64,000 nucleotides of DNA, taken from contig JAFUPC010000024.1 of the NCBI GenBank assembly GCA_017481495.1, positions 10,790-74,789 on the forward strand, read 5' to 3'. The stretch is from Clostridia bacterium (GTDB lineage: Bacteria > Bacillota > Clostridia > Oscillospirales > CAG-272). Of the stretch, positions 38,148 to 63,323 are shown one piece after another. The notes under the pieces are model-generated. The model searched no databases, had not been told where the DNA came from, and saw only the letters and a program-made list of their open reading frames with translations. A program made the position numbers and the translations under genes. Each line of letters opens with the position of its first letter. Positions within the stretch are counted from its first letter, which is position 1.

Positions 38148-38166
38148 TTCGGCATTATGCGCAATG

Positions 38167-38200
38167 GGGACATCCTTCGAGGTGTCCCTTTCGTTTTGTT
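38167..38200 (+). terminator. Rho-independent terminator after XRE-TPR gene
   Basis: GGGACATC-n6-GGTGTCCC followed by TTTCGTTTTGTT. Confidence 0.7.
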
Positions 38201-38263
38201 GCACAAATCCATGAGTGCTTTTTTGTATAAAATGCCGAATTGGAATTATTTTTCTCAAAAATA

Positions 38264-38292
38264 TTGACATTTTATGTGAAGTCTGTTATAAT
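38264..38292 (+). promoter_or_regulatory. Consensus promoter of the secreted-protein/DUF5050/permease cluster
   Basis: TTGACA, 17-nt spacer, then TATAAT (TGt upstream); followed by a roughly 240-nt AT-rich leader. Confidence 0.65.
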
Positions 38293-38533
38293 AGAAACAG
38301 AAACATAAAAAGGAATGTTTTCCAAACCGATTTTTTCGGTGCGGGATGCAAATATATCATCCGCGAAACAAAGAGGTGATGCTCGACAGTACAACAATCA
38401 CCCTATGAAACATATGACTTTTTAGTGCATGGCATTTTTATATCCGAAGTTTGCATAGGTTGATTACCATCAATCTATGCGTTTGTTGTTTTTACAACAA
38501 AAAGACACAAGTCAAGAAAAACGAGGTACAAAA

Positions 38534-38965
38534 ATGCAAAAGAAAAAACTCATCGCCGCCATCACGGCAATCGCACTCACCGCGGCAACTCCGCTTGCCA
38601 TCCATGCGTATCAGGTAGCCACAACCGGTTCCTTAACTCTTGGAACAACAACAATGAGCGGTTATCTTTACCGTTCCAGTTCCTCCACCTATGTATTTTC
38701 GGCAGAGACAAGAATTGCTTCGCAGCCTTACGATTCCGCATCGCTGTCTGCAACCGTGCAAGTCTTCCCGTATGATGGATCTACAGTTGCACCTGTTTCT
38801 GCATCAACCTCCAAAGAGCAAAAAATTGCAGTCACAACAGGAACCACGAGTACCGATAACGCGTCCTCCGCATCTGGCACCCACACGGTTACATTCTACT
38901 ACGATGGTACTACCACGTTAAGCAAGACCGAATCCACATCATGGAGTAAATCAAATAACAATTGA
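38534..38965 (+). CDS. Small secreted Ser/Thr-rich protein, unknown function
   Basis: Signal peptide MQKKKLIAAITAIALTAATPLAIHA. Mature part of about 117 aa is more than one third S/T. Lower GC than surroundings. Confidence 0.55.
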   Translation: MQKKKLIAAITAIALTAATPLAIHAYQVATTGSLTLGTTTMSGYLYRSSSSTYVFSAETRIASQPYDSASLSATVQVFPYDGSTVAPVSASTSKEQKIAVTTGTTSTDNASSASGTHTVTFYYDGTTTLSKTESTSWSKSNNN

Positions 38966-38998
38966 TTTTCCATGTCATAAAAATCTTAAGGTAAGTGG

Positions 38999-39032
38999 TA
39001 TCGAACAATCTGTTCAGACAGATTGTTCGATA
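38999..39032 (+). other. Perfect 14-bp-stem intercistronic hairpin without U-tract
   Basis: TATCGAACAATCTG-TTCAGA-CAGATTGTTCGATA, between the secreted-protein stop (38965) and the lipoprotein ATG (39046). Confidence 0.8.
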
Positions 39033-39045
39033 CTCCATTATTAAA

Positions 39046-40278
39046 ATGAAAAAATATTTTTTGTTGATTTTCGTAGTGTTTGCTTTATCTTCATGTACCC
39101 ACCCCGACTCTCTTCCGGACGATTACAACTCCTCGATTACAATCGAACCTGCTTTCTATCTGCAATATGCCACCCAAGAATTTTCCTATCACACCTCCGA
39201 CGATGACAGCAAAACCGTTTCTCAAGGGCAAAAATACGATGCGTTCAGTCATCTGATGATTTACAACGGTTATCTGTATGCGTACCCATATACCACGATG
39301 TACCGCATCAATCCGGAAAACGGGAATATCACAACCGTTTGCACAGACCCGCTGTGTACGCATTCCAATATTGAATGTCCGTTTTTCGATGTGGACTTTT
39401 CATCATTTCAAATTGTGGACAACGCCGTGTATTTTGTCGGAAACAATACAACGCGGAATCCCGGCAAAGCAGGATTCACCTATTACCTGTACGACATTGC
39501 CGCCGGAACGTCTGAAACCGTAAACGCGCCGCATTCCGAGGATACCTTGCGCATCAACAATCCCGTCATTACCGACGATGGATGGTTTTATTACTATGAT
39601 TGCCTGTATGACGACGACAAGAAAGACTATCAGTATTTCATCCGTAAATATTCCCTGAAAACGGGGGAAGATAAAATCGTCCTTGAACCGGACGATTTCA
39701 GCACCACGCTGATTGACGAAATCGACGGGGAACTGTACTATCTGGACGGAATCGGTCTCGGCACATTCGACCCGGAAACCGGGGAAAAAACGCAGTTGTA
39801 CGACGGTTTCGCCGGAAACGCCGGATATGATGACGAATATTTCTATTTCCGCGACCGCGACAACTGCTTATACCGTCTTCCGATTGGTTCCGCCGAAGCC
39901 GAACGACTGACCGACTTCGGCGTGGAACAGTATTATATCACCGACAAGTATCTTTATTACAAAAAACAGGAAACCAACATCATCGGTTATTACGAAGACG
40001 GTACGCCCGCTGACATCGGCAGTCAGCAAATCTGGCGCATGAACAAGGACGGAACATCGCCGGAGCTTGTCTGGGAATTTACCGGGGCGTTATCCTGCAT
40101 GAACGTCGATAACTTTGCGGTACTCGGTGATTATATTTATTCCAAATTCTATTACTGGGACGATGCGCAGAAACACTACATCGAAAGCCAGAACGCCGGC
40201 GACAACGGCGGGAATATTTATCTCATGCGCGTTGACATCGAGAACCAAGAACTCTACTTTTTCAATCTGACGGAATGA
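39046..40278 (+). CDS. DUF5050-like beta-propeller lipoprotein
   Basis: Lipobox FVVFALSSCTH. Y/D/N-rich with reiterated LY(Y/R)..xxDG motifs (IWRMNKDGTSPELV, LYRLPIGSAEAERL). GC clearly below the window average. Confidence 0.6.
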   Translation: MKKYFLLIFVVFALSSCTHPDSLPDDYNSSITIEPAFYLQYATQEFSYHTSDDDSKTVSQGQKYDAFSHLMIYNGYLYAYPYTTMYRINPENGNITTVCTDPLCTHSNIECPFFDVDFSSFQIVDNAVYFVGNNTTRNPGKAGFTYYLYDIAAGTSETVNAPHSEDTLRINNPVITDDGWFYYYDCLYDDDKKDYQYFIRKYSLKTGEDKIVLEPDDFSTTLIDEIDGELYYLDGIGLGTFDPETGEKTQLYDGFAGNAGYDDEYFYFRDRDNCLYRLPIGSAEAERLTDFGVEQYYITDKYLYYKKQETNIIGYYEDGTPADIGSQQIWRMNKDGTSPELVWEFTGALSCMNVDNFAVLGDYIYSKFYYWDDAQKHYIESQNAGDNGGNIYLMRVDIENQELYFFNLTE

Positions 40279-47386: not shown

Positions 47387-48283
47387 TCACACTTCCTCAT
47401 AGATCCGCTTCATATTATTGAAAGAAACCTGCGTTCCGTACTCGCATTCCTCCATGCCTTCATATTCAAGGAAAATATCCCCGTCGAAGGCGGAATGCTT
47501 GATTGTGCGCATGATGTCCCAGATGTCAATGTCGCCCTGGGCGAGGATGGAGCCGCGCAGGAACGTGCCGTTGACCGAGCGGAACCAGGAATTTTCGCAG
47601 TCGAATTCTGCGGCGCCGCCGGGGTCGCGGTGTGCGGGACGGATATAGAAGTCCTTCATGTGGACGGTCTTTGCAAACGGGATCATCTTTTTGGCGGCGA
47701 TCTCCGGGATGTCGTCCACGCAGGTATAGTTGCCGACGTCCATCTGGTGGCCGAAGTTGTCTCGGTGGACGGAGGTCAGAATCTGCCGCACCCGCTCGGA
47801 GCCGTTGGCGTGGAAGCCGTGGTTTTCAAACAGGACGGTGATGCCGAGCGGCTTTGCAAAGTCGCACAGTGATTCGTAGGTCTCCACGATAAGCGGAAGC
47901 TCCTCCTGGAACTTCTCCATCGTGTTTTCCGTCATCGGACGGCGGTATGCCGCGGAATCCACGCGCATCGTGGGGATGCCGAGCTCCGACACCGCCTCCA
48001 TGTGCGTTTTGACACGCTTCATCTCCGCCGCGTATTCATCTTTTGTCAGCATGAGGAAGTTGGCGTTGAGGGAATAGTTTCCCAGCGGCACGCCGGTCTC
48101 GCGGCTTGCCGTTTTGAATTTGCCGATGAGGGAGCGATCTTCCGTGAAGTCAAAGCCGAACGGCACCAGCTCTACGACCTCCGCGCCCATGTTGCAGATG
48201 CGTTCAAAGGCTTCGATTGGAGTAAACTCGCCCGTCCGGATCTTGCGGGAAACGCCGTAAATGGAAATACCGAAACGTCGCAT
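47387..48283 (-). CDS. Sugar phosphate isomerase/epimerase (xylose isomerase-like TIM barrel)
   Basis: 298 aa. The pattern GAEVVELVPFGFDF...LFENHGFHANG...HMKDF...GDIFLEYEG is typical of the AP endonuclease 2/xylose isomerase-like fold. Confidence 0.75.
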   Translation of the reverse strand: MRRFGISIYGVSRKIRTGEFTPIEAFERICNMGAEVVELVPFGFDFTEDRSLIGKFKTASRETGVPLGNYSLNANFLMLTKDEYAAEMKRVKTHMEAVSELGIPTMRVDSAAYRRPMTENTMEKFQEELPLIVETYESLCDFAKPLGITVLFENHGFHANGSERVRQILTSVHRDNFGHQMDVGNYTCVDDIPEIAAKKMIPFAKTVHMKDFYIRPAHRDPGGAAEFDCENSWFRSVNGTFLRGSILAQGDIDIWDIMRTIKHSAFDGDIFLEYEGMEECEYGTQVSFNNMKRIYEEV

Positions 48284-48306: not shown

Positions 48307-49578
48307 TTATAAATATCTTCGTAATATTCCAAGCACCGCCTGATTGTCGTCCGACAACGGGAGATTCTCGGCAAGCGAACCCGCCCTCCCCCGGGCGCGG
48401 TCTTCGTCCAGGGTGGACAGAAGCATGGCAAGCGATGCGCAATCGTTTTCCGCGGCGGCATAATCAAAGGCGGAAATGCCGCGGATGCCGGTCTTTTCGG
48501 GGTCACACCCGGCGGAAAGCAGCATGGCGGTCATGCCCGGCGACACGGCACGGCACGCGGCGGCGATGAGCGGTGTGCGGTCGTCGGTGACATCCACGGC
48601 ATCGGGATAATAGTTTTTCGCAAGCAAAAGAGCCAGTGCGGCGGCATTTCCGCGCCGGATATGGTAAAAACCAACGTGGTAATACAAAGGATGGCGCAGA
48701 AACTCCGTCAGCTCGCCGGGGCGTTCGTAAAAGCGGAACACCGTTTCGATGATGTCCGGATCTCCGCACAAAAGCGCGTACTGGAACAGATTGAACAGCT
48801 TTGGCGTGGGCGTGGGCGCGTTTTCTCCCGGCAGGGTGATGCCGTGGAACCGTGCTTCCTCCTGCAAGGTCGGGCGGAACCGGGCGGTCAGCTGGGGAAC
48901 GAGGACAAACAGTTGTGCAAGCAGGGCATGATGCCTCTTGGCAATGATCGCGGCAAGGCACGCCGTCAGCGTATCAAGCCCCGCGCCGTCAAACAGCCTG
49001 TCCCCGAACCGGATAAAGAAATCCACGGCACAGCGGCGCACGCCCCCCGGGCGGACATCCGCATCGGTGCTGTCCCACATGGGATCGGTCATGCAGTCCA
49101 TGACCGAGGTGCCGGTGACGTCCGGTTCAAAATAATCGTCAAACAGGAGCCCCTCGGCGGTGTCCGGGTCAAGATATGCGCCGTAGGTCATCGGGTCAAA
49201 GGAAAACGGCGAGTCGTTTTCCAGATAGATGGGGGAACCGACATTGTGAAAGCTTTCCTTTGCATCGAGATACAGCTGTCTGGAACCCACAACGACGTAC
49301 TGTCCGACATACGGGTCGAAATACACGGCAGTCGCTTCCTGCTCCACGTCGTTGCGGATCTGCGGCAGCATTTTCGCATAATAGACATCGAGAAACGACA
49401 CCGGCGGCACGCGCAGAAGCACACCGTCCCGGCAGGTCTCGTCCGACAGCGCATACGGATACGACAAAATCTTCCCCTCCGCGCGGTAGAGATACCCGAT
49501 CTTCGGCCCGATCAGACGGTAGCGGGATGCGGGATATTTCCGCGGCGGGTTACGGCGGAAACGGACGTAGCTTCTCAT
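48307..49578 (-). CDS. Ankyrin-repeat protein with unknown N-terminal domain
   Basis: C-terminal third shows ankyrin-like units (GNAAALALLLAKNYYPDAVDVTDDRTPLIAAA...GMTAMLLSAGCDPEKTG..GISAFDYAAAENDCASLAMLL). The start lies 1 nt after the ppiB stop. Confidence 0.6.
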   Translation of the reverse strand: MRSYVRFRRNPPRKYPASRYRLIGPKIGYLYRAEGKILSYPYALSDETCRDGVLLRVPPVSFLDVYYAKMLPQIRNDVEQEATAVYFDPYVGQYVVVGSRQLYLDAKESFHNVGSPIYLENDSPFSFDPMTYGAYLDPDTAEGLLFDDYFEPDVTGTSVMDCMTDPMWDSTDADVRPGGVRRCAVDFFIRFGDRLFDGAGLDTLTACLAAIIAKRHHALLAQLFVLVPQLTARFRPTLQEEARFHGITLPGENAPTPTPKLFNLFQYALLCGDPDIIETVFRFYERPGELTEFLRHPLYYHVGFYHIRRGNAAALALLLAKNYYPDAVDVTDDRTPLIAAACRAVSPGMTAMLLSAGCDPEKTGIRGISAFDYAAAENDCASLAMLLSTLDEDRARGRAGSLAENLPLSDDNQAVLGILRRYL

Positions 49579-49579
49579 G

Positions 49580-50050
49580 TCAGATGAGCGTGACCTTTGC
49601 CATCTTCATTTCGGTCTTCGGGCGGTCGTTTCTGTCGGTGGCAACGGATGCGATGCGGTCAACGACGTCCATGCCCTCGGTGACGTGACCGAATGCGGCA
49701 TACTGCCCGTCCAGGAAATCCGCATCCGCGTGGCAGATGAAGAACTGGGACGATGCGGAATTGTACCGCTGGGAACGCGCCATCGAGATGACACCGCGCT
49801 TGTGGGAAATGGGATTCTTGATGCCGTTGACGGCAAATTCGCCCTTGATGTTTTCGTCAGAGCCGCCCATACCGGTTCCGGTCGGGTCGCCGCCCTGGAT
49901 CATAAAGCCGGAGATCACGCGGTGAAAGATGAGTCCGTCATAAAAGCCCTCGGAAACGAGCTTTTCAAAGTTCGCACAGGTGATGGGCGCCGCTTCGGGG
50001 TTGAGTTCGATTTTAATGATGCCGCCGTCGGCCATTTCGATTTGTACCAT
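49580..50050 (-). CDS. ppiB: Peptidyl-prolyl cis-trans isomerase, cyclophilin type
   Basis: FHRVISGFMIQGGDPTGTGMGG signature. ATG 50050 follows AAAAGGAG. Confidence 0.9.
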   Translation of the reverse strand: MVQIEMADGGIIKIELNPEAAPITCANFEKLVSEGFYDGLIFHRVISGFMIQGGDPTGTGMGGSDENIKGEFAVNGIKNPISHKRGVISMARSQRYNSASSQFFICHADADFLDGQYAAFGHVTEGMDVVDRIASVATDRNDRPKTEMKMAKVTLI

Positions 50051-50105
50051 GATTGGGTTCTCCTTTTGTGATATAAAATGAATGGATATTTGATTCCTAT
50101 TATAT

Positions 50106-50133
50106 ATTATACCATAAATTGAGAAAATTGCAA
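50106..50133 (-). promoter_or_regulatory. Promoter of ppiB-ankyrin-TIM operon
   Basis: On the minus strand: TTGCAA, 16-nt spacer, then TGgTATAAT. Confidence 0.6.
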
Positions 50134-50184: not shown

Positions 50185-53100
50185 TCAGGATCCTGCCGAA
50201 CTTCCGGTATCTTCCTTTCGTTTCTCAATTCTCGCCAGAATATCCTCATAATCCGGTATTCCCGGTTCCAGGAACCGTTCTTCCGTCACTTCCTCCACTA
50301 CGGCGGACAGCGACGTATCACTATCCCCAAAAGAATACGGCGGCATCGCATATTGCAGATACACCGTCTCCCCGGTGTCCCACCGCTCTGCCATCACGAA
50401 CAGATTCACCTCTCCGCTTCCGCCGCCCGCGGAACCGTGGAACAGGTATCCGTTTTCATAATTGTCGGGCAGAGAAAGCGAAGCGCGGCAGCACAGGTCA
50501 ATATTTTGATTATACCACCAAAAGACCATCGCCGGGTCATCCCGATACACGACGTACCGCGGGATCCCACCGACCGGCGCGGAGGTAAACAGGACGGATT
50601 CTTCAGTTTCCGGAACGGATTCGCCAAAAAACGCCTCTGTGGAAAGTACGGTGATGTCGGCGCGCGGAACATCGGTGCCGTCTTCCGTTGCCGCGGATGC
50701 ATACTGCCACGTCATCCCGTAATCGTCCGTCACAAAATACAGAATCCGCCGCCCGCCGTTTTCCATATACGCCCGAACGGGATAAGTACCCACCGCGCCG
50801 TCAAAGATCGGGACGAGCGGGTCATACGCATATGCGGCAATCCCATCCGGGAGCGGCAGGGTCAGACGCTCCCAGGTCTCACCGCCGTCCGCCGTGCGCA
50901 GGATTTCCGGCCCCGCGTCCATCGAATACGCATATCCGACAAACGCGACATCCGCCGATGCAAAGCCCGCGCCCGTCATGACGCCCGGATGACTGCCCTC
51001 CGCCGACGGCTCCGGGAGCATCTGCCACGTTTTGCCGCCATCCGTTGACCGCATGGCGTTTTTCTGCGCCGTGCCAAGGGACGTATCGAGATTCGTCAGG
51101 ACTGCCCAGCGGGTGTCGCCGTATTCTGCGTAATACGCCGCGCTCCAACTCAGCCAGTGCGGCTCCCACGATGCAATCTTCTCCGGGGTGGAACGGTCAT
51201 TTGCCGGAAAGTCCGCGATGATGTCCCACGGAATGCTTGCAATGTACGCGCCGCCCTCGGCGGTGTAGAGTTCGATTTCATTGGATTCGAGAGAAGCGAG
51301 ATAGGGGGTATAGGGGCCGGATACGGTCATTTGGGAAGAAACCGTCCCCGCCGCACCGCCGTCCGGGTAAGCAAGCCGTTCATACGCAAGATATTCTTCT
51401 TCCGTCAGTTCACACTCCACGCAGAACGGAGCGCTTTCCGCAGAAGTCCTCCGATACAGCCGCAAATAACGCGCTTCTCCCCGATACCGCAGCTCCGCCG
51501 CCAGGCAGAAATACCACGCCTGCGCCTCTTCACTCCGCCGTTCCTCTACCGAGACATACGGCAGGACGGTGATGCCGTCATATGGGATTCCGTCGGGAAT
51601 CTCCACTTCATTCATATAATAGGTTCCGCTCCTGTCCGGCACCGGCTCTTTTTCGCTTTCATACAGTGCATCAAAATACATCATCATGCCGGACGGTGTT
51701 TCGGGCGATGCACAGCAGAACAGATAATTTTTGTATCCGTCCACCGGCATTTCCCAGAGAACGGTTTCCTCCGGCGTGATTGTCCGCTGATCGCACGCCG
51801 CATAAACCAACGTCAGCACATCTCCGCACCGCACAAGATCGTACCGCCAGAAGTCGTCCCGATACGTCTCATCAAACGGCGCATAGGTCACAAGATACGT
51901 TTCGGAAAGGTCGGGCGACAGACAGCGGACAGTATGCACATCTTCCCCGAAATAATGCGCCTGTAAATCCGTTTCCGGGTCGCGGACATCGTAATGCAGC
52001 CAGATGCCCTCTTCAAACACCAATCGGTCGGATTTGGAAAACGTATACACCCCCGCATCCGTATCCTGCGAGGTGCCGTCCCGGCAAACGGCAAGAAGGC
52101 GTTCTTCCCCGTCCGCGGAAACGGCATAAACGGCATTCTGCCGCGGGACGCCGCCCACAAAGGTATTCCGCTCAATATAAACGGTTCCGTCCCACGCACC
52201 GAGTGCCGATGTGCCCGTTTCCGCACGGCGGTCATCCGTGTCCGTCTGTGCATCGTAAATTCCCCACCCGGCGGGCGTTTCCCCGTCATAAAGGGCATAA
52301 AGCACCCGGTTTTCATCCGTAAACCCGCGGAACACTTCCCCACCCGAAAAGTGCGTCTCGCGCCCGTTCGCGCAGGTTACGGTGAAGCCATTGTCCTGCT
52401 CTGTCACCGTGACACTGCCGTCGGGGGACGTCCTGCGCACGGAATACGCAACCGTTTCGGGATACGCATCCGGTGCGGTCTCCGTGCAGGACAGCGTGCC
52501 GTCGGGGTTTGCCGTCACGGCATACGCGTTTCCGGTTGTTCCGTTTTCATTCGCCGCATAGAGGATGCAGGTATTCCCGTCCGGGGTATAGGCGATGCTT
52601 GTCGGGGCGGCGGTCGTGTCGAGGTATTCCATAAACGAGGTCTGCGCTTCTCCCGGGTTTTGGGTGTCAATCACGGCGAGCAGAACGTCACGGTGCGCTG
52701 TGTTTCCGCGGTCGTCCGTGTGCGGGGTATACGTCACATAGACCCGATACCGGTCGGTAAACGGATAAGAAACCATCTGCGTTTCCCCCGCGACGGCGGG
52801 AAGCGGGCAGAGATTCCACGAAAGCGACGCGGGAATCGGATACGTCATCGTCTCATACATCCGCCCGACCACGCCGGCGGAGAAACCGCTGTCCGATACG
52901 GACAGTGCTGCAAAGCGGTCGGCATCGGGCAGGTCGTCCGTGTCCGACACATCCGATGCTTTTTCCACACCACCAAGCGAACAGCCTGCGGCGGCAAGGG
53001 TCAGCGTGACTGCCAGCACCGCCGCGATGCCGCGGTTCTTTGCCGGGGTTGTCAGGCGGACGATGCGTTCCTTTACCGGGTCGGCGGAAAACGCCGCGGT

Positions 53101-54048
53101 CAGCGCACCGGCGCGCGTTTTGTGTTCCGCTTCCGCGAGAATGAGCGATGCGTAGCGCAGGCGGTTTTTCGGCGAAAGCAATTCCGCGGCGCGCTCGTCG
53201 CAGGCAAGCTCGGCATCCCGTCGGGAGAGAAACACGCAGACGTGGATGAGCGGATGCCACCAGAACACGCTCGTGACGGCACAGCGGACAATATTCCAGA
53301 ACGGATCGCCGCGGCGAAGGTGCAGATATTCGTGCAGAAGTGCCATCGCGCATTCGGGGTTCGGCCGCTCTCTGTAATCCGGCGGAAGATAGATGACCGG
53401 GCGCAGACCCGTGACACACGGCGTCGGTGCCGCGGCGGAAAAATAGATTTTGGTATGTCCGACGGTGCGCAGATACTGTCTGTCCCGTTTCAGCCGACGG
53501 TCAAACCGAACGGCGGAAAGTGCAAACCACGCCCCGCACAGAACCGCGCCCGAAATCCAGACGGTGTACAGAAACCCGGAAAGCCGGATACCGTCGGAAG
53601 CGTGTTCCGACGATTGGGACGAATCCAAAACGGCGGTCTCAACGGTCGGGATGACTTGCACCGGCGGAGCGGTTCCCTCTATGGAACTGTTTTGCGCCGC
53701 GGAAATGCTTTCCGCATCGGAAACGGTTTCCGCCGGTTGGAACACGGTCTGCGGCGAAAGCGGGGAAAGTTCCGCCGTGTCCCGGGCGGCGGGATTTGGG
53801 GAGGCGGCAAGGTCTTCCGCCGCGGTGTCGGCATTTGCCGTTTCTTCGGAAAACGCCGCGGCGGACGGTTCCCGCACGAAGCTTTCCGGAATGTCAACGG
53901 TAAACAGCGGAAACGGCAGAACCATCCGGACGAGTACGCACAGCCACAGGGCGCAGATGAGTCTCTGCGGCACCCGGCGGCGGAACAGGGCGCGGATGAT
54001 GATCACAGCGGCACACAATACCGTCAGGGAAAAGAGGTATGACAGCAT
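50185..54048 (-). CDS. BlaR1/MecR1-type M56 peptidase signal transducer with very large non-PBP extracellular domain
   Basis: M56 zinc motif LLHEYLHLRRGD and typical TM layout. After the last TM (AAVLAVTLTLAAAG), about 930 aa have no penicillin-binding motifs but carry Asp-box/BNR motifs STDGGKTW and TADGGETW. The start is probably ATG 54048 (TGAAATG junction with blaI). Confidence 0.8.
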   Translation of the reverse strand: MLSYLFSLTVLCAAVIIIRALFRRRVPQRLICALWLCVLVRMVLPFPLFTVDIPESFVREPSAAAFSEETANADTAAEDLAASPNPAARDTAELSPLSPQTVFQPAETVSDAESISAAQNSSIEGTAPPVQVIPTVETAVLDSSQSSEHASDGIRLSGFLYTVWISGAVLCGAWFALSAVRFDRRLKRDRQYLRTVGHTKIYFSAAAPTPCVTGLRPVIYLPPDYRERPNPECAMALLHEYLHLRRGDPFWNIVRCAVTSVFWWHPLIHVCVFLSRRDAELACDERAAELLSPKNRLRYASLILAEAEHKTRAGALTAAFSADPVKERIVRLTTPAKNRGIAAVLAVTLTLAAAGCSLGGVEKASDVSDTDDLPDADRFAALSVSDSGFSAGVVGRMYETMTYPIPASLSWNLCPLPAVAGETQMVSYPFTDRYRVYVTYTPHTDDRGNTAHRDVLLAVIDTQNPGEAQTSFMEYLDTTAAPTSIAYTPDGNTCILYAANENGTTGNAYAVTANPDGTLSCTETAPDAYPETVAYSVRRTSPDGSVTVTEQDNGFTVTCANGRETHFSGGEVFRGFTDENRVLYALYDGETPAGWGIYDAQTDTDDRRAETGTSALGAWDGTVYIERNTFVGGVPRQNAVYAVSADGEERLLAVCRDGTSQDTDAGVYTFSKSDRLVFEEGIWLHYDVRDPETDLQAHYFGEDVHTVRCLSPDLSETYLVTYAPFDETYRDDFWRYDLVRCGDVLTLVYAACDQRTITPEETVLWEMPVDGYKNYLFCCASPETPSGMMMYFDALYESEKEPVPDRSGTYYMNEVEIPDGIPYDGITVLPYVSVEERRSEEAQAWYFCLAAELRYRGEARYLRLYRRTSAESAPFCVECELTEEEYLAYERLAYPDGGAAGTVSSQMTVSGPYTPYLASLESNEIELYTAEGGAYIASIPWDIIADFPANDRSTPEKIASWEPHWLSWSAAYYAEYGDTRWAVLTNLDTSLGTAQKNAMRSTDGGKTWQMLPEPSAEGSHPGVMTGAGFASADVAFVGYAYSMDAGPEILRTADGGETWERLTLPLPDGIAAYAYDPLVPIFDGAVGTYPVRAYMENGGRRILYFVTDDYGMTWQYASAATEDGTDVPRADITVLSTEAFFGESVPETEESVLFTSAPVGGIPRYVVYRDDPAMVFWWYNQNIDLCCRASLSLPDNYENGYLFHGSAGGGSGEVNLFVMAERWDTGETVYLQYAMPPYSFGDSDTSLSAVVEEVTEERFLEPGIPDYEDILARIEKRKEDTGSSAGS

Positions 54049-54049
54049 T

Positions 54050-54469
54050 TCAGTTTCCTCCGTTTTTGTCAAGGTTCCGTTCCGCATCCGCGATGATCTT
54101 GCGCAGTGCGGCGATGTCTTCCTCCTTCAGCGCGTTCCGTCCGGCAAGCGACGACATCATCATCCCGACCGAGCCGTCAAACACGCGGTCAAGAAACGAA
54201 TCCGTCTCCGCCGGCACGACGTCCGCGCGGGTGATGACGGGGTAATACTGCTGTATCCGCCCCGTGTCGTCCACACGGACGGCACCTTTGGCAATCAGCC
54301 GTTTCAGCATGACGAAAACGGTCGTTTTCGTCCAGCCGGTGTCGCGGGACAGCGCCCCGACCATCTCCGCAATCGAGCGCGGCTCCTTTTCCCAGAGCAG
54401 CTTCATGAGTTTCCATTCTCCGTCGGAGAGGGTGACGGTGGGGGTGGTTGGTCTTTTGGGGTCGTTCAT
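54050..54469 (-). CDS. BlaI/MecI/CopY-family winged-helix repressor
   Basis: 139 aa. SDGEWKLMKLLWEKEPRSIAEMVGAL...GWTKTTVFVMLKRLIAKGAV fits the Penicillinase_R family. GAGAGG RBS. Confidence 0.85.
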   Translation of the reverse strand: MNDPKRPTTPTVTLSDGEWKLMKLLWEKEPRSIAEMVGALSRDTGWTKTTVFVMLKRLIAKGAVRVDDTGRIQQYYPVITRADVVPAETDSFLDRVFDGSVGMMMSSLAGRNALKEEDIAALRKIIADAERNLDKNGGN

Positions 54470-54519
54470 TTTCGATTCCTCTCTTTCTGTATTTGTGGTT
54501 CCTTCTTGCATTTTTACAC

Positions 54520-54974
54520 TGTAGGGGATTGTTTCCGTTGAACCGTTACATTGGCAAGAACACGAGCGGAAAGGTTCGCACGGTAGCCCTCCTCCGGGAG
54601 GGGGGACAGTCTTACACCGTTCAACGAAGTTGCACCGTTCAACAAAGTTGAACATGAAGGTGCAAGACAGGGGGGAGCCCGACGGCGGGAAATCTTTCGC
54701 ACCGCCGTGGGTACTCTCTCTGTAAGTGTCCCCTACAGATACAGCATGAAGCAATACACGGCAAAAAGATAGAAGATTATATTCTTCATGTAAACATAGC
54801 ATAACGCGTTATCTTTTTTACCGAATTAGTCACTTTGTGCGGGAGTACCAATAGCAGTACAGCATCTTTCCCGCCGTCGGGCTCCCACCTGATTTTCCGC
54901 TATAGGCGTAAAATCTGTCCCCCCTCCCGGAGGAGGGCTTCCGTGCGAACCTTTCCGCTTCTATTCTTGCCAAT
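54520..54974. repeat. Mosaic element TGTAGGGG (54520) ... CCCCTACA (54737) plus inverted partial second copy
   Basis: Segment 54550-54609 is 56/60 identical to the reverse complement of 54915-54974. GGGAGCCCGACGGCGGG (54673-54689) is the reverse complement of 54870-54886. An internal direct repeat CACCGTTCAAC occurs twice. Confidence 0.85.
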
Positions 54975-55172
54975 GCAAAGTTTTCACCGAAACATCATAC
55001 CACAGAATTATTGTATTGATCGGTTAACGCCTGTTATCTTAAGTATACCACGCCGGTTAACGGATGTCAACCGGTTTTCCGTATTTTTACAAACTGTTCA
55101 TTTTTTCATTTTCCAATATCAACCGCCGCACAGCTTTCACCGCAGGTTTTTCACCAATTTTCCGGAATCCTA

Positions 55173-59981: not shown

Positions 59982-60107
59982 AGATTTCCGAAAAATAATT
60001 TTCCAAATCCCCCAACCTTCCCCTTAAAAAAATTGTCTGTTATACGAGTACTCAAAAAGGGAGCGCGAACCGCTTCCCCGAAATACGAAAAGAAAGGAAG
60101 ATGCCCC

Positions 60108-63100
60108 ATGTTTTGTTACGAACAGAATGACGAGACCCTCGTGATGCTGACGATGGCAGGCGAGCAGGCGGCGTATGAGGTTCTTGTGACCCGGTGGCAG
60201 AAAGCGGTGCTGGCGGCGGCGATGTCCGTTCTGCACAGTCACCACATGGCGGAAGATGCGGCGCAGGATGCGTTCATCACCGCGTGGATGAAGCTGGACT
60301 GCTTAAAAGAACCGGAAAAATTCGGCGCATGGGTCTGCCGCATCGCCCGCAACTGCGCAAAGAACACGATTCTGCGGTACCGAAGCTGGCTTCCCGCCGA
60401 AGCCGCGGATTCCGCAGATGCGTATCTTTCGTCCGGCAACCCCGACTTTGACCCGGAGGAACGGTTCCTCATCGCCGAGGAAAACGCGATTCTGCGGCAC
60501 TCGGTCGGCCGTCTGCCGGGACGGGTGGGCGACATCATCCGGATGCACTATTTTGAAGATCTTTCCGTTGGGGAAATTGCCCGCCGTCTCGGCATTGCCG
60601 AGGGCACGGTGAAATGGCAGCTTTCCGACGGCAGAAAACGGATACGAAAGGAATTGTGTGCAATGAACGAACAGTATAACGACAATCTGACACAGCGTGT
60701 CATGAAAAAAGTGGAAGAACTGAAAAACTGGCAGTATGACAATGCCAAGACCGGATTTGAGGAAGTTTACCGCGACGTACTCGCCGCCGTGGAGGGACTG
60801 CCCGAGTCCGACGAAGCAAAGGAAACCGGAAAATACCACGCAATGGCGGACGTTCTGATGCGCGGCCGCTGGTGGATCGCCGGGGACGATGAGCTGCGCG
60901 GGGACGAAATGCTTGCCCGCATCCGCGAAGCGGCGGAACGCGGACACAACGACGACGTCATGGCGTACCTCTGCACGGAAGAAACGCGCAAGCTCTGGGG
61001 CGATGCGCGTGTCGACTACATCCGCGAAACGCTCATTCCGCGCCTGGAAGCGGGCAATTACCCGAAAGCCCTGACTCATGCGTGGTATCAGCTCGGCGAG
61101 ACCCTGCTGATGAACGAAGACGGCAAAATCGGCGGAGAACTGCTCGCCCACGCAAACGAAGCGCTGGAAAAAGCGGTCGCCGTTTCCGGGGATTCCGGCA
61201 AAAATCTCTACACCGCCGCCGCGGAAGCGGCACTCGCACGGAACGCGGCGATCCTTTGTGACTGCACGGACAGAAAACAGCGTTCGTTCCGTCTGACTGC
61301 TGGTGCTGAGGAATACCGTGTCCTTGACACGGACGGCGCATTCCGCCGCTTTGACAACAACTGGTGGCAATGCGGACGACTCTGCTCGGCAGACCTGGAC
61401 GCGGATTTCGTTCTGCGCAACGCCTCCACCTGTGACGGGTATTTTACCTATCCCGGTCTTGGTGTCGGGGAGACCCACATCGGCTCCGACGGCACGCGCC
61501 TGACTTATGCGGACGATGATGCGACCGTCACAACGCCCGCCGGGACATTTGAGGGATGCCGGGTATGGGAGATCGTGCGCACGGACGATGCGGCGGGACT
61601 TTACCGCACCTGGTATAAGGAAAACGTCGGTATCGTCCGGCAGGAGCATCACTACGACGGTGTTACGGAGACCCGCGTGCTGTCTTCTTATGCGGTCACC
61701 GGACGGGGACTCGTTCCGCTTGTCCGCGGCAACACCTGGGAATACCGTGCGGAGCCAGAAAATCCCCACGTCAGAAAAGGCGGCCGCTATACCGTTTCTG
61801 CGGCGGAAAACGGCACTGCGCTCGTCTCCCTCACCGCGACCCTCATCCGGGACGGTTACGACGAGAACAGCTGGCTTGACATGATCGAATGCATCCGCGG
61901 CGAATACTTTGACGGGGAACACGTCTGCGACGTCACCCACGCAATCGAGCGCGCCAACGCCCTTGCCGTGACCCCGATTGAAAAGGCGCACACTGCCGCC
62001 GCGGCTTCCGTTGCAAAGCGTATCATGGAAACCGATTCCACATTCAATCCCGACTACCGCGCAACGGGACACTGGAACTTCTTTGCCCGCAGCAACATCC
62101 ACGCATCGGACGGCGGCGCCCGCCGCACGATGTCCCACCACTTCCGCTGGTCGTTTGAACTCAAAAATTACGTCGGCGGCGAGACCGAACCGCTTCTTTC
62201 CAACGACATTCTCGACATTCTCGGTGATGCACTGGGATGTGTCTCCGACGAAGCGTGGAAGCCCGGGTATCGGGACACCGTTCATCGGATGCCGCGGTAC
62301 CAAACGCCTCTCTGCACCGAAGTCGTCTGCGAGGATGCGGGCGAGGTGACGGTGAAGGCGGGAACGTTTGCCGGCTGTATGCGCATGAAGCTGAACGTCT
62401 CGGGTTATCCCGACAGCCTTGCCTATCGCGGCGGGAACCGGGAATACCTCTTCGCCCCCGGCATCGGTATCATCCGCGCTGAAAACGAAGCCTGCGGCGG
62501 CGCACGCAAGGTGGTCTACGAGCTGTCCGCCTACGAGGGCACGGGCGAGGGCTGGAACCCGCTCGATCCCGGCATGATGCGCACCTACGAAGCGCTTGAC
62601 TTAACGGACGGCTACATTGCCGGCACGGTCTACACCTTTGCCGCAGACGCCGACGGCAACACGGTCATCTTCTCCGACCGGACGGGCATCAAAGAAAAGC
62701 TGCAGCGCATCACGGACTACGCGGTCATCGACGGGGAGACCGTTGAAGAACGTCTCTGGAACGAGGGCAAGCACGATGAATCCCGTCTGCGCCACGCCGT
62801 CAACAACTTCCGTCTGTTTGCGCATTTCCACGGCAGACCGTCCCGCTACTGGGCGGCTCCCGACAAGGCGATCGCCTGGAACCGCTACCGGATGCAGATG
62901 CTGGAAAATCTGAATGAAGACGGCAGTGTTCCGGATGCGTGGAAAGGCCACTACGCCGCAACCGCGTTCCGTCTCGCCTGCGCTCTGTTCGGCTGTGGAA
63001 AGAACGACGAGGGCTGGGAAGCACTTGATCGCGCCTTCCCCGCAATGGAAGCATGGCTTTCGATTCCCGCCGGATGTGACATGGACACCGGCAACCCCCT

Positions 63101-63323
63101 CATCTGGGGCGGCATCAAGGTACGCAAGGGCAAGGATCTGCTCGTCCTCCCCGACGGCACGGTCGAACCGCTCTACTATGAATACCTCTTCTCCGAAAAC
63201 CAAAACCTCATGCACTACGGTCTGACCGCCGCCCACGGCTGGGAATGGTTTGACGGCGTTAGAAATGAAGAACGGTACAAGGATGCCATTGAGCGCGCAA
63301 AGAAGCTGACAAAGATCAGATAA
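60108..63323 (+). CDS. ECF-type sigma-70 family factor fused to a ~880-aa soluble C-terminal domain
   Basis: Region 2 (AEDAAQDAFITAWMKL...FGAWVCRIARNCAKN) and region 4 (MHYFEDLSVGEIARRLGIAEGTVKWQLSDGRKRIRKEL) fall within the first ~190 aa. The remainder has no TM segment and no motif I recognise. Confidence 0.8.
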   Translation: MFCYEQNDETLVMLTMAGEQAAYEVLVTRWQKAVLAAAMSVLHSHHMAEDAAQDAFITAWMKLDCLKEPEKFGAWVCRIARNCAKNTILRYRSWLPAEAADSADAYLSSGNPDFDPEERFLIAEENAILRHSVGRLPGRVGDIIRMHYFEDLSVGEIARRLGIAEGTVKWQLSDGRKRIRKELCAMNEQYNDNLTQRVMKKVEELKNWQYDNAKTGFEEVYRDVLAAVEGLPESDEAKETGKYHAMADVLMRGRWWIAGDDELRGDEMLARIREAAERGHNDDVMAYLCTEETRKLWGDARVDYIRETLIPRLEAGNYPKALTHAWYQLGETLLMNEDGKIGGELLAHANEALEKAVAVSGDSGKNLYTAAAEAALARNAAILCDCTDRKQRSFRLTAGAEEYRVLDTDGAFRRFDNNWWQCGRLCSADLDADFVLRNASTCDGYFTYPGLGVGETHIGSDGTRLTYADDDATVTTPAGTFEGCRVWEIVRTDDAAGLYRTWYKENVGIVRQEHHYDGVTETRVLSSYAVTGRGLVPLVRGNTWEYRAEPENPHVRKGGRYTVSAAENGTALVSLTATLIRDGYDENSWLDMIECIRGEYFDGEHVCDVTHAIERANALAVTPIEKAHTAAAASVAKRIMETDSTFNPDYRATGHWNFFARSNIHASDGGARRTMSHHFRWSFELKNYVGGETEPLLSNDILDILGDALGCVSDEAWKPGYRDTVHRMPRYQTPLCTEVVCEDAGEVTVKAGTFAGCMRMKLNVSGYPDSLAYRGGNREYLFAPGIGIIRAENEACGGARKVVYELSAYEGTGEGWNPLDPGMMRTYEALDLTDGYIAGTVYTFAADADGNTVIFSDRTGIKEKLQRITDYAVIDGETVEERLWNEGKHDESRLRHAVNNFRLFAHFHGRPSRYWAAPDKAIAWNRYRMQMLENLNEDGSVPDAWKGHYAATAFRLACALFGCGKNDEGWEALDRAFPAMEAWLSIPAGCDMDTGNPLIWGGIKVRKGKDLLVLPDGTVEPLYYEYLFSENQNLMHYGLTAAHGWEWFDGVRNEERYKDAIERAKKLTKIR

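What the first reader, a model, noticed from the sequence alone, without database searches (positions are those of the whole stretch)
50185..54469. BlaI/BlaR1-type signalling pair whose sensor has a ~930-aa non-beta-lactam ectodomain with Asp-box (BNR) motifs
The repressor (139 aa) and the M56 protease-transducer are translationally linked (TGAAATG junction). The transducer has the HEYLH zinc site (about 53320-53334) and the usual TM topology. It lacks the C-terminal penicillin-binding sensor (no SxxK / SxN / KTG pattern seen). Instead it carries a low-complexity A/S/E/T loop (ORF aa 70-165) and about 930 extracellular residues (50185-52974). These include two sialidase-type Asp boxes (STDGGKTW, TADGGETW) and many aromatic-rich beta-like segments. 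The sensed ligand is therefore unlikely to be a beta-lactam. No obvious regulated resistance gene is adjacent: the downstream gene is an independently promoted ppiB operon.
Basis: partly seen in the sequence, partly recalled or inferred. Interest (0 to 1): 0.65.

Follow-up and report, generated by a model that had tools for sequence, protein, structure and literature searches.

The report
BlaI/BlaR-type sensor with Asp-box ectodomain
A rumen bacterium carries a repressor plus membrane-protease signalling pair of the BlaI/BlaR family. Its 929-residue outer part is not a penicillin sensor but a stack of uncharacterised beta-rich modules, one of them a small Asp-box propeller-like domain; this is a recurrent, unstudied variant of a family already known to be mostly non-beta-lactam.

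Summary
A 139-aa BlaI-family repressor gene (54050-54469, minus strand) is joined by TGAAATG to a 1287-aa M56 metalloprotease gene (50185-54048). The protease has HEYLH, an Asp five residues after the second His, ELACD, and a four-helix BlaR1-like topology. It has no transpeptidase domain and no SxxK or KTG motif.

The 929-aa ectodomain is not an orphan. A full HMMER scan found 1167 relatives, nearly all matching one ~215-aa Asp-box module (aa 903-1128). Fifty of the best 150 cluster representatives also carry an N-terminal M56 domain. In metagenomic loci, blaI sits directly upstream wherever the contig reaches. AlphaFold models the module well (pLDDT 82). Foldseek places it among Asp-box beta-propellers, but only as a partial match (TM 0.45 or less). 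The rest of the ectodomain matches no known family.

A 2026 paper already showed that only about 6% of M56 proteins carry a beta-lactam sensor, so the general idea is known. What is new is the module family, a lipobox-like end of TM4, and a conserved BlaI-type promoter about 570 nt upstream. That promoter is separated from blaI by a 488-nt palindrome. The ligand and regulon remain unknown.

The parts
54050..54469 (-). blaI-family repressor gene (139 aa, winged-helix Penicillinase_R)
   Evidence: Pfam PF03965 at 4.5e-28 (98.3 bits, cut-off 22.6); NCBIfam BlaI_of_BCL 8e-25 and CopY_TcrY 1e-18, both below their cut-offs. Identical at the nucleotide level in strain variant L087.
50185..54048 (-). 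M56 (BlaR1-family) membrane zinc-metalloprotease sensor gene, 1287 aa including the stop; its start is linked to the blaI stop by TGAAATG
   Evidence: The same 1287-aa product is called on public contigs.
52975..54048 (-). N-terminal transducer (aa 1-358): TM1 4-22, TM2 30-48, extracellular loop 49-158, TM3 159-180, cytoplasmic protease region 181-339, TM4 340-358
   Evidence: Hydropathy and charge distribution: RRRVPQR between TM1 and TM2, 27 K+R in aa 181-339, and acidic segments outside. Pfam M56 covers ORF aa 136-343.
53575..53904 (-). Long low-complexity acidic A/S/E/P/T extracellular loop (aa 49-158)
   Evidence: Composition; 18 D+E against 3 K+R. Relative P0002 has a comparable P/T/E-rich loop.
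53320..53334 (-). HEYLH zinc-binding motif (aa 239-243), followed by D248 (HExxHxxxxD) and ELACD at aa 280-284
   Evidence: Regex on the translation. The motif definition comes from bioRxiv 10.64898/2026.08.03.742534.
52981..52995 (-). Lipobox-like AAAGC (Cys356) at the outer end of TM4, preceded by the basic stretch KNRG
   Evidence: A PROSITE-like lipobox sits at this position in 35 of 50 M56+module proteins (49 relatives plus the window's own protein), against 2 of 50 in their TM1-2 region.
51853..52806 (-). Ectodomain module A (aa ~415-732), all-beta with SPDG/TPDG/NPDG/SADG turns; no known family
   Evidence: Homologous segments in P0002, P0016, P0041, P0119 (all M56) and lipoprotein P0134. 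AF2 pLDDT only 55-74. No Pfam or PDB sequence match.
50665..51342 (-). Asp-box (BNR) propeller-like module (aa 903-1128), the conserved and recurrent sensor module
   Evidence: 1167 HMMER hits, nearly all to this segment. AF2 pLDDT 81.6, pTM 0.80. Foldseek hits to GH74, GH33, sortilin and Ycf48 at E 2e-5 to 1e-3 with TMq 0.45 or less. Profile against PDB: Sialidase26 4.5e-9, Ycf48 3.9e-8.
51025..51048 (-). Asp box 1, STDGGKTW (aa 1001-1008)
   Evidence: the S, D, G and W columns are invariant in alignment A1.
50872..50895 (-). Asp box 2, TADGGETW (aa 1052-1059)
50707..50730 (-). Asp box 3, degenerate, TDDYGMTW (aa 1107-1114)
   Evidence: it aligns with S/TxDGGMTW of the relatives.
50341..50622 (-). 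Small C-terminal beta module (aa ~1143-1236) that recurs in relatives, often N-terminal to the Asp-box module
   Evidence: phmmer segments q785-878 in P0003, P0004, P0006, P0011, P0012, P0017, P0020, P0028, P0029, P0119 and lipoproteins P0015, P0047, P0134. AF2 gives five strands at pLDDT 62-82.
55021..55070 (-). Probable BlaI-controlled promoter: TTGACA-17-TATACT (TG-extended) with CGTTAACCG boxes inside the spacer (55054-55062) and just downstream of the -10 (55021-55029)
   Evidence: Promoter scan scores 11/12. The 9-mer occurs only at these two places in 64 kb. The region aligns with the blaI promoters of L004 and L007: GTTGACA..CGTTA..TG.TAT.CTT..ATAAC..GCGTTAAC.
54517..55004 (.). About 488-nt imperfect palindrome lying between that promoter and the blaI ribosome-binding site
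   Evidence: Inverted repeats I1 (80 nt, 88%) and I2 (61 nt, 74%). RNA fold -291 kcal/mol, z -20.6. Spanned by contigs of independent runs. No Rfam family.
54612..54653 (-). Tandem 18-nt units carrying the palindromes GTTCAAC-N3-GTTGAAC (54619-54635 and 54637-54653); two copies here, three in strain L087
54514..54557 (-). Weak promoter-like TTGCCA-18-AACAAT at the palindrome's proximal end, followed by CTACAGTGTAA (a TACA/TGTA-type dyad with a 1-nt spacer)
49580..50133 (-). Downstream ppiB (cyclophilin, 156 aa from ATG 50050) with its own promoter-like TTGCAA-16-TATAAT at 50133-50106
   Evidence: Pfam Pro_isomerase 7e-52; promoter scan; sequence.

Best explanation

The sensor is a four-helix membrane protein with a cytoplasmic M56 zinc protease. 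After its last helix come 929 acidic extracytoplasmic residues. These form at least three beta-rich modules:
- an uncharacterised all-beta module A;
- a roughly four-bladed Asp-box propeller-like module;
- a small beta module.

By analogy with BlaR1/MecR1 and with CenIR and PetRP, binding of an extracellular or cell-envelope ligand to the ectodomain would activate the protease. The long acidic extracellular loop may take part. The protease would then cleave the BlaI-type repressor and derepress the blaI-blaR operon, read-through genes and unlinked targets.

The most likely control point is the TTGACA-17-TATACT promoter at 55042-55070, which carries two CGTTAACCG boxes. It is homologous to the blaI promoters of close relatives.

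The ligand is most plausibly a glycan or a cell-envelope or protein partner, because those are what Asp-box propellers bind. This step and all biochemical steps are inferred, not shown.
For: Shown here:
- The M56 and BlaI domains are present above curated cut-offs, and the catalytic motifs HExxHxxxxD and ExxxD are intact.
- The two genes are translationally coupled.
- The topology agrees with the positive-inside rule.
- There is no transpeptidase domain or motif.
- The Asp-box module is an autonomous, conserved domain. It has 1167 relatives, a confident AF2 model, and propeller matches by fold and by profile.
- The M56+module fusion recurs in 50 of the best 150 representatives.
- In the metagenomic loci whose contig includes the 5' end of the M56 gene (L003, L004, L006, L007, L009), blaI lies directly upstream.
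- The gene is intact in four strain variants, and synonymous changes outnumber non-synonymous ones, 18 to 13 codons.
- The promoter/operator architecture is shared with L004 and L007, whose BlaI proteins match the window's at E about 1e-45.

From the literature (PMC13492132): about 15,000 M56 proteins fall into 254 architectures, only about 6% have the beta-lactam domain, and about 96% lie near a blaI.
Against: - No ligand, no regulon and no expression data exist. No RNA runs were found.
- The candidate operator motifs do not recur elsewhere in the 64-kb window, so no target gene is identified.
- Neighbours are not conserved among relatives.
- A 488-nt palindrome separates the conserved promoter from blaI. 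It may block or reshape expression, so the operon might instead use the weak proximal promoter-like site.
- About 70% of the ectodomain is modelled at low confidence.
- phmmer of the N-terminal region found no solved BlaR1 chain. Kinship with BlaR1 therefore rests on profile HMMs only.
Confidence: 0.75

Rival explanations
1. Two-part sensor made from one precursor. TM4 is really an internal lipoprotein signal peptide. Lgt and Lsp lipidate Cys356 and cut before it, releasing the 931-aa ectodomain as a membrane-anchored lipoprotein. That lipoprotein would signal to the M56 core non-covalently, for example through the acidic extracellular loop.
For: - The segment KNRG-IAAVLAVTLTLAAAGC-S has the basic n-region, hydrophobic h-region and lipobox layout of a lipoprotein signal peptide.
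- A PROSITE-like lipobox sits at this position in 35 of 50 M56+module proteins, mostly ...SAVGC[SA]F, against 2 of 50 in their TM1-2 region.
- Each of the three ectodomain modules also exists as a stand-alone lipoprotein: P0010, P0043 and P0048 for the Asp-box module, P0134 for module A, P0015 and P0047 for the small beta module.
Against: - A lipobox 350 residues into a polytopic protein is not a recognised Lsp substrate. A literature search for internal lipoboxes found nothing.
- The motif may be a relic of a gene fusion with a lipoprotein.
- 15 of 50 proteins lack it.
- Canonical BlaR1 signalling relies on a covalent link between sensor and transducer (my knowledge of the family, not tested here).
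Confidence: 0.13
2. The ectodomain is an enzyme or surface scaffold rather than a ligand sensor, for example a glycoside hydrolase of the sialidase or GH74 type. The M56 part would serve mainly as an anchor or as a feedback regulator of that activity.
For: The best fold and profile matches of the module are glycoside hydrolases: GH74, GH33, GH93 and GH43. There is a weak NCBIfam hit to the F510_1955 glycosylhydrolase family, E 0.006. A GH29 fucosidase gene lies about 5 kb away.
Against: - The module is only about 215 aa and matches only part of the much larger GH propellers (best profile match spans ~120 residues), with TMq 0.45 or less.
- The protein has no FRIP/RIP motif.
- The matches run through the Asp-box hairpins, which are structural rather than catalytic (Asp-box review PMC2716378, title and abstract seen).
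- No CAZy-type Pfam domain appears in the window protein or in the eleven relatives scanned.
Confidence: 0.06
3. It is a conventional beta-lactam sensor whose penicillin-binding domain has diverged beyond recognition.
For: It belongs to the family, and its best NCBIfam hit is blaR1_generic.
Against: - The protein has no SxxK or K[TS]G motif.
- It has no PF00905 hit.
- The blaR1_generic match stops at profile position 300 of 585 and scores 58.5 bits against a cut-off of 400.
- The ectodomain folds as all-beta modules rather than an alpha/beta PBP fold.
- No beta-lactamase or PBP gene is nearby.
Confidence: 0.01
4. The long ORF is an artefact or a decaying gene: an assembly chimera, or a fused pseudogene that no longer functions.
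For: The protein is unusually long, about 70% of the ectodomain has no family, and the first word-index search found only the protein itself.
Against: - Contigs from several independent studies cover it without breaks.
- There are four intact 1287-aa variants.
- Substitutions are mostly synonymous.
- P0002 (1320 aa) is collinear with it over the M56 domain, module A and the Asp-box module.
Confidence: 0.02

Closest known systems
BlaR1/BlaI and MecR1/MecI of Staphylococcus aureus and Bacillus licheniformis
   Same: The gene order is repressor then sensor. The transducer is an M56 zinc protease with four helices. The repressor is a winged-helix protein of family PF03965. The presumed mechanism is also shared: signal-triggered proteolysis of the repressor and autoregulation.
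   Different: There is no penicillin-binding (transpeptidase-like) sensor and no linked blaZ or mecA. The ectodomain is about 3.5 times larger and all-beta. The extracellular loop is a 110-aa low-complexity acidic segment. The operator core appears to be CGTTAAC rather than TACA/TGTA.
CenIR of Clostridioides difficile, and the survey of M56 architectures in the same paper (PMC13492132)
   Same: [quoted passage not shown] The paper's conclusion that most BlaR homologues sense other things applies directly.
   Different: CenR has a short, largely unstructured C-terminal tail (aa 334-460). Here the tail is 929 aa of folded modules. The Asp-box architecture is not among the nine abundant architectures listed in that paper.
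Other non-canonical BlaIR systems: PetR/PetP of Synechocystis (bioRxiv 10.1101/2020.07.31.226407), mycobacterial BlaIR, and PvmSR of Pseudomonas aeruginosa (bioRxiv 10.64898/2026.08.03.742534)
   Same: Each is an M56 protease plus a BlaI/CopY-type repressor used for a purpose other than beta-lactam resistance.
   Different: The mycobacterial and PvmS sensors are described as lacking the BlaR1 sensor domain; the PetRP paper was not read. Here a very large ectodomain is present.
Asp-box (BNR) beta-propellers: Ycf48/HCF136, GH33 sialidases, GH74 xyloglucanases, Vps10/sortilin
   Same: SxDxGxTW hairpins repeat every ~50 residues in beta-sheet blades. Profile matches reach Sialidase26 at 4.5e-9 and Ycf48 at 3.9e-8.
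   Different: There are only about four blades in ~215 aa, with a distinctive N-terminal part (GPFxGY...ELYTE...IP..I...FPA.DR) absent from those families. No catalytic motifs are present. No solved structure aligns with a TM-score above 0.45.
RsgI-type anti-sigma factors of cellulolytic clostridia (from my own knowledge, not tested here)
   Same: Gut and fibre-degrading Firmicutes attach varied extracellular modules to a membrane signalling core so as to sense extracellular polymers.
   Different: The signalling core differs: an anti-sigma factor with regulated intramembrane proteolysis there, an M56 protease acting on a repressor here. No carbohydrate-binding module was recognised in this protein.

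Membership tests
Peptidase M56 (BlaR1-type transducers, Pfam PF05569) | Profile match above the curated threshold | tested here: met
   128.7 bits against a cut-off of 31, E 3.3e-37.
Peptidase M56 (BlaR1-type transducers, Pfam PF05569) | HExxH zinc site with Asp five residues after the second His, plus a downstream ExxxD | tested here: met
   HEYLHLRRGD at aa 239-248 and ELACD at aa 280-284. Motif definition.
Peptidase M56 (BlaR1-type transducers, Pfam PF05569) | Four-helix topology with the protease domain in the cytoplasm and the C-terminal domain outside | tested here: inconclusive
   Hydropathy peaks and the positive-inside charge pattern fit. No dedicated topology predictor was run and there is no experiment.
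Peptidase M56 (BlaR1-type transducers, Pfam PF05569) | Cleaves its cognate repressor | not testable with these tools
   Needs biochemistry.
BlaR1/MecR1 beta-lactam sensor-transducers (NCBIfam NF000326) | C-terminal penicillin-binding domain with SxxK, SxN and KTG motifs | tested here: not met
   No PF00905 hit. No SxxK or K[TS]G in 1287 aa. NF000326 scores 58.5 bits against a cut-off of 400 and aligns only to profile positions 151-300 of 585.
BlaR1/MecR1 beta-lactam sensor-transducers (NCBIfam NF000326) | Linked beta-lactamase or PBP2a gene under BlaI control | tested here: not met
   The neighbours within about 10 kb are ppiB, an ankyrin-like protein, a TIM-barrel protein, a tRNA, an SSF symporter, a GH29 fucosidase, GlyRS, SulP, a methyltransferase and an ECF sigma fusion.
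BlaI/MecI/CopY repressors (Pfam PF03965) | Profile match above the threshold, about 120-140 aa | tested here: met
   98.3 bits against a cut-off of 22.6; 139 aa.
BlaI/MecI/CopY repressors (Pfam PF03965) | Dyad operator overlapping its own promoter (classically TACA-NN-TGTA) | tested here: inconclusive
   No TACA-NN-TGTA is present. Instead two CGTTAACCG boxes sit in a strong promoter-like site, conserved with L004 and L007. CTACAGTGTAA has a 1-nt spacer. Binding was not tested.
Non-canonical BlaIR-family systems (sense of PMC13492132) | An M56 protein without a transpeptidase domain, within five genes of a BlaI homologue | tested here: met
   The same pairing is seen in relatives L003, L004, L006, L007 and L009.
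Asp-box (BNR) beta-propellers | Repeated SxDxGxTW hairpins at blade spacing | tested here: met
   Three boxes at aa 1001, 1052 and 1107. Pfam BNR 29 bits against a cut-off of 27. The columns are conserved in A1.
Asp-box (BNR) beta-propellers | A closed propeller of six to ten blades | tested here: inconclusive
   The AF2 module has about 18 strands in 236 aa. Foldseek aligns about 180 residues to 6- or 7-bladed propellers at TMq 0.45 or less. Coordinates could not be inspected, so closure and blade number are unknown.
GH33 sialidases | FRIP motif and the catalytic Arg triad, Tyr/Glu and Asp in a six-bladed propeller | tested here: not met
   The protein has no RIP motif. The module matches only ~120 residues near the C-terminal end of Sialidase26 (aa 373-494 of 553).
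Bacterial lipoproteins (PROSITE PS51257-type signal) | Lipobox [LIVMFWSTAG]2-[LIVMFYSTAGCQ]-[AGS]-C after a basic n-region and a hydrophobic h-region | tested here: met
   KNRG-IAAVLAVTLTLAAAGC.
Bacterial lipoproteins (PROSITE PS51257-type signal) | The signal lies at the N-terminus (Cys within about the first 35-40 residues) and is processed by Lgt and Lsp | tested here: not met
   The Cys is residue 356 of a polytopic protein. Processing cannot be tested here.

The most novel reading that the evidence does not exclude
Gut Firmicutes carry a large, unrecognised family of giant modular BlaR-type sensors with ectodomains of roughly 200 to 2000 aa, built around a new ~215-aa Asp-box module. The ectodomain would be made as an internal lipoprotein precursor. 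Lsp would cut at the conserved G-C-[SA]-F end of TM4, giving a lipid-anchored receptor that signals non-covalently to the M56 protease core. In this organism the operon would additionally be gated by a 488-nt palindromic leader with strain-variable operator-like repeats.
Probability: 0.1. Interest if true: 0.7.

Novelty: new variant of a known kind. Interest (0 to 1): 0.4.

Why it matters
BlaIR-type systems are annotated across thousands of genomes as beta-lactam sensors, yet almost none of the non-canonical ones has a known signal.

This locus defines a recurrent sensor module that is fused to M56 proteases in at least 50 sequence clusters. The module also occurs on free lipoproteins and on other membrane-anchored proteins in gut and rumen Firmicutes. 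It is a compact, well-modelled domain of about 215 aa, which makes it a practical handle for ligand screening and structure determination.

Finding its ligand would show what a whole class of "BlaR" proteins in gut microbiomes senses. It would also stop them being counted as resistance determinants. The conserved lipobox-like end of TM4 offers a cheap test of whether some BlaR-type sensors are split after synthesis.

Tried and rejected
- A word-index homology search with the whole ectodomain and with the module-A alignment found only the protein itself or nothing. This was a sensitivity limit, not orphan status, because the exhaustive HMMER scan found 1167 relatives.
- The genome-contig scan found only a weak Chloroflexi BNR hit. 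The source species is not among the GTDB representatives, so its taxonomy stayed unresolved. A Firmicute origin is inferred from the relatives and from Gram-positive-type features.
- phmmer of the ectodomain, of the N-terminal region and of the module-A profile against PDB sequences gave nothing useful.
- The whole-ectodomain AF2 model was poor (pLDDT 57). Its Foldseek hits (SorCS2, GH74, TolB, DPP-IV; TM 0.2 or less) are treated only as a hint of beta-propeller-like folds.
- PADLOC gave no defence-system hit.
- Rfam gave no family for the palindrome; only sub-threshold hits appeared.
- A viral-contig scan for the 16-mer of the palindrome arm gave four hits, which is no more than chance.
- No RNA runs were found for the locus.
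- Searches for the candidate operators elsewhere in the window found none.
- The beta-lactam sensor, sialidase enzyme and assembly-artefact readings were considered and rejected (see the rival explanations).

Full report
**1. What is in the sequence**

On the minus strand, a 139-aa ORF (54050-54469) is followed by a long ORF that ends at 50185.

The blaI stop (TGA, 54052-54050) and an ATG at 54048 form TGAAATG. The sensor is therefore most likely 1287 aa, the length used in public gene calls for four near-identical strain variants.

Pfam gives Penicillinase_R at 4.5e-28 for the small protein. For the large one it gives Peptidase_M56 at 3.3e-37 and BNR at 5.6e-7. NCBIfam's BlaR1 model matches only its transducer half: profile positions 151-300 of 585, 58.5 bits against a cut-off of 400.

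The catalytic signature is intact. HEYLH is at aa 239-243 (window 53320-53334), with Asp248 five residues after the second His and ELACD at aa 280-284.

Hydropathy gives helices at aa 4-22, 30-48, 159-180 and 340-358. Basic residues cluster between TM1 and TM2, after TM3 and before TM4. The 110-aa loop at aa 49-158 and everything after TM4 are strongly acidic. This is the BlaR1 layout, with the protease inside and the C-terminal 929 residues outside.

The protein has no SxxK or K[TS]G motif and no transpeptidase hit.

There are three Asp boxes, not two, at aa 1001, 1052 and 1107.

The locus occurs in contigs from at least seven ruminant-gut studies and is spanned without breaks. It is a real, intact gene.

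**2. What the ectodomain is**

The word-index search found only the protein itself. The exhaustive HMMER scan of 1.84 billion representatives found 1167 relatives at E of 1e-3 or better, and 158 at 1e-10 or better.

Nearly all of them hit one segment, ectodomain residues ~545-770 (protein aa 903-1128).

I searched the best 150 locally with the window's M56 region. Fifty of them also carry an N-terminal M56 domain with HExxH, and these range from 447 to 2370 aa. The others are mostly short proteins. About a third of them have lipoprotein-type N-termini (30 of 91), and some have other membrane anchors.

Two further pieces of the ectodomain recur:
- Module A (ectodomain ~57-374) is found in P0002, P0016, P0041, P0119 and the lipoprotein P0134.
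- A ~95-aa beta module (ectodomain ~785-878) is found in many M56 relatives and in lipoproteins P0015 and P0047.

P0002 (1320 aa) is collinear with the window protein over the M56 domain, module A and the Asp-box module.

An alignment of the module (A1) shows a well-conserved ~215-aa unit. Its consensus reads GPFxGY...IELYTE..G.Y..SIP..I..DFPA.DR...W.PGW...YYG.IGDFRWA, followed by three S/TxDGGxTW boxes.

**3. Structure of the module**

With a 37-sequence alignment, AlphaFold2 gives mean pLDDT 81.6 and pTM 0.80 for the module, with about 18 strands.

Foldseek against the PDB returns only Asp-box and related propellers: GH74 xyloglucanases, GH33 sialidases, sortilin, Ycf48, GH93 and GH43. E-values run from 2e-5 to 1e-3, with query TM-scores of 0.25-0.45 and about 180 aligned residues at best.

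The module profile matches Sialidase26 (4.5e-9) and Ycf48 (3.9e-8) in PDB sequences, through the Asp-box blades only.

I conclude that the module belongs to the Asp-box propeller superfamily. It is a small form of about four blades with its own N-terminal part and no close solved relative. It has no FRIP motif and is far smaller than the glycoside hydrolase propellers it matches, so an enzyme role is unlikely.

The 929-aa model was poor overall (pLDDT 57). Only the module was confident. Module A is all-beta at pLDDT 55-74, and residues ~300-465 are undefined. Its fold matches are not interpretable beyond "propeller-like".

Module A has no Pfam or PDB sequence match. Among the long relatives scanned, the only extra known domain is an IseA-like DL-endopeptidase inhibitor at the C-terminus of P0012 (above threshold) and P0022 (below threshold). 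This is a faint pointer to the cell wall.

**4. Is the pairing with blaI conserved?**

The metagenome scan with the module alignment gave six loci with the full module, all from human-gut assemblies, plus L009.

In L003, L004, L006, L007 and L009 the module is part of an M56 protein and a BlaI homologue lies immediately upstream. L005 and L008 are cut off before that point.

Neighbours differ between loci. L004 and L007 sit next to an integrase, NikA, AAA_25 and Mob_Pre, which is a mobilisable element. L003 sits next to a relaxase and RepA_N. No conserved target gene emerges.

**5. Regulatory region**

The strongest minus-strand promoter-like site is TTGACA-17-TATACT (TG-extended) at 55070-55042. 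It holds two copies of CGTTAACCG, one in the spacer and one just after the -10. These are the only two copies in 64 kb.

This region aligns well with the blaI promoters of L004 and L007 (GTTGACA..CGTTA..TG.TAT.CTT..ATAAC..GCGTTAAC). Their repressors match the window's at about 1e-45. In those loci the promoter lies about 45 nt from the start codon.

Here a ~488-nt imperfect palindrome (54517-55004) sits in between. It has nested arms of 80 nt at 88% and 61 nt at 74% complementarity. As RNA it folds at -291 kcal/mol, z -20.6.

The palindrome is present in independent runs. It matches no Rfam family.

Its blaI-proximal arm carries an extra pair of 18-nt tandem units. Each unit forms a GTTCAAC-N3-GTTGAAC palindrome. 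A strain variant has three units instead of two.

A weak promoter-like site and a TACA-G-TGTA dyad lie at the palindrome's proximal end.

I take the distal promoter as the ancestral BlaI-controlled one and the palindrome as an insertion in the leader. Its effect is unknown.

Operators differ among more distant relatives. L009 has the classic TACAGTTGTA, and L003 has GTCTAC-N4-GTAGAC.

**6. Mechanism**

The best-supported reading is a BlaIR-family proteolytic switch. A signal at the ectodomain activates the cytoplasmic M56 protease. The protease cleaves the repressor, and the operon and any other targets are derepressed.

- Shown: domain identities, intact catalytic motifs, coupling of the two genes, topology pattern, absence of a beta-lactam sensor, recurrence of the fusion, and promoter homology.
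- Inferred: every biochemical step, the ligand and the regulon.

Downstream, ppiB has its own promoter-like site (50133-50106). No terminator was found before it, so co-transcription is possible.

**7. An unexpected detail**

TM4 ends in ...KNRG-IAAVLAVTLTLAAAGC-SLGG, which has the form of a lipoprotein signal peptide.

A PROSITE-like lipobox sits at this position in 35 of the 50 M56+module proteins, against 2 of 50 in their TM1-2 region. In the closest clade the motif is nearly invariant as SAVGC[SA]F.

All three ectodomain modules also exist as free lipoproteins, so the simplest account is an ancestral fusion of an M56 core with a lipoprotein. Whether the site is still processed, which would split the sensor in two, is open. 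I rate that at about 0.1-0.15.

**8. Comparison with what is known**

Kurtz et al. 2026 (PMC13492132) characterised CenIR of C. difficile. They showed that about 15,000 M56 proteins fall into 254 architectures, that only about 6% carry the transpeptidase domain, and that about 96% lie near a blaI.

The Asp-box architecture is not among the nine abundant architectures they list. I found no paper that mentions it.

Other non-canonical systems are PetRP, mycobacterial BlaIR and PvmSR. The mycobacterial and PvmS sensors are described as lacking the BlaR1 sensor domain.

The locus is a member of the M56/BlaI family and of the non-canonical BlaIR group. It is not a BlaR1/MecR1 beta-lactam sensor, and it is not a sialidase.

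**9. Verdict**

This is a new variant of a known kind: a recurrent, uncharacterised sensor architecture rather than a one-off. Interest is 0.40.

Noticed in passing
window 54517-55004: A ~488-nt near-perfect palindrome lies in the blaI leader, between a conserved BlaI-type promoter and the ribosome-binding site. Its nested arms are 80 nt at 88% and 61 nt at 74% complementarity, and as RNA it folds at -291 kcal/mol (z -20.6). It is present in independent runs and matches no Rfam family. It looks like an insertion relative to L004 and L007.
   Followed up: partly
window 54612-54653; L087 about 2380-2440: The 18-nt tandem unit GTTGAACGGTGCAACTTC, which forms GTTCAAC-N3-GTTGAAC palindromes, is present twice in the window and three times in a strain variant. 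The rest of the intergenic region is almost invariant.
   Followed up: partly
window 54546-54582 and 54942-54994: A 40-50-nt core of the palindrome arms (containing GGAAAGGTTCGCACGG) also lies on other contigs with unrelated flanks in runs X1, X2 and X5. Some of those copies have a different adjacent GC-rich hairpin. This suggests a dispersed repeat.
   Followed up: no
window 50983-51323 (aa ~909-1022 of the sensor): Strain differences are concentrated here. 26 of the 29 differences between the window and the X5/L088 allele over 50185-52000 fall in this 340-nt tract, which encodes the N-terminal half of the Asp-box module. Both alleles co-occur in run X1. Changes across the gene are mostly synonymous (18 vs 13 codons), so a recombination tract seems likelier than positive selection.
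   Followed up: partly
window 52975-53031 (aa 340-358): TM4 of the sensor looks like an internal lipoprotein signal peptide, with lipobox AAAGC at Cys356. The motif is conserved in 35 of 50 M56+module proteins.
   Followed up: partly
L004 860-5354; L007 2422-9461; L003 589-8612: Human-gut relatives of the blaI/M56-module pair sit on mobilisable elements. L004 and L007 are next to an integrase, NikA, AAA_25 and Mob_Pre. L003 is next to a relaxase and RepA_N.
   Followed up: partly
P0012 aa 2242-2366; P0022 aa 1781-1918: Two giant M56+module relatives end in an IseA-like DL-endopeptidase inhibitor domain (PF16800). This is a faint hint that this sensor clade deals with cell-wall hydrolases.
   Followed up: no
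window 60033-63323 (+): A 1096-aa ORF has ECF sigma-70 regions 2 and 4 at its N-terminus, followed by about 880 further residues that include a DUF3108-like stretch. It is either a sigma factor fused to a long extension or two genes read as one.
   Followed up: no
window 48307-49578 (-): A 423-aa protein with only weak ankyrin-repeat hits starts 2 nt after the ppiB stop (TGACATG). It is followed by a xylose-isomerase-like TIM-barrel gene (47387-48283), so ppiB heads a small operon of unclear logic.
   Followed up: no
window 38001-40000: GC content drops to 0.44 here against about 0.55 elsewhere. The ORF at 38995-40278 has no Pfam match, so this may be foreign DNA.
   Followed up: no
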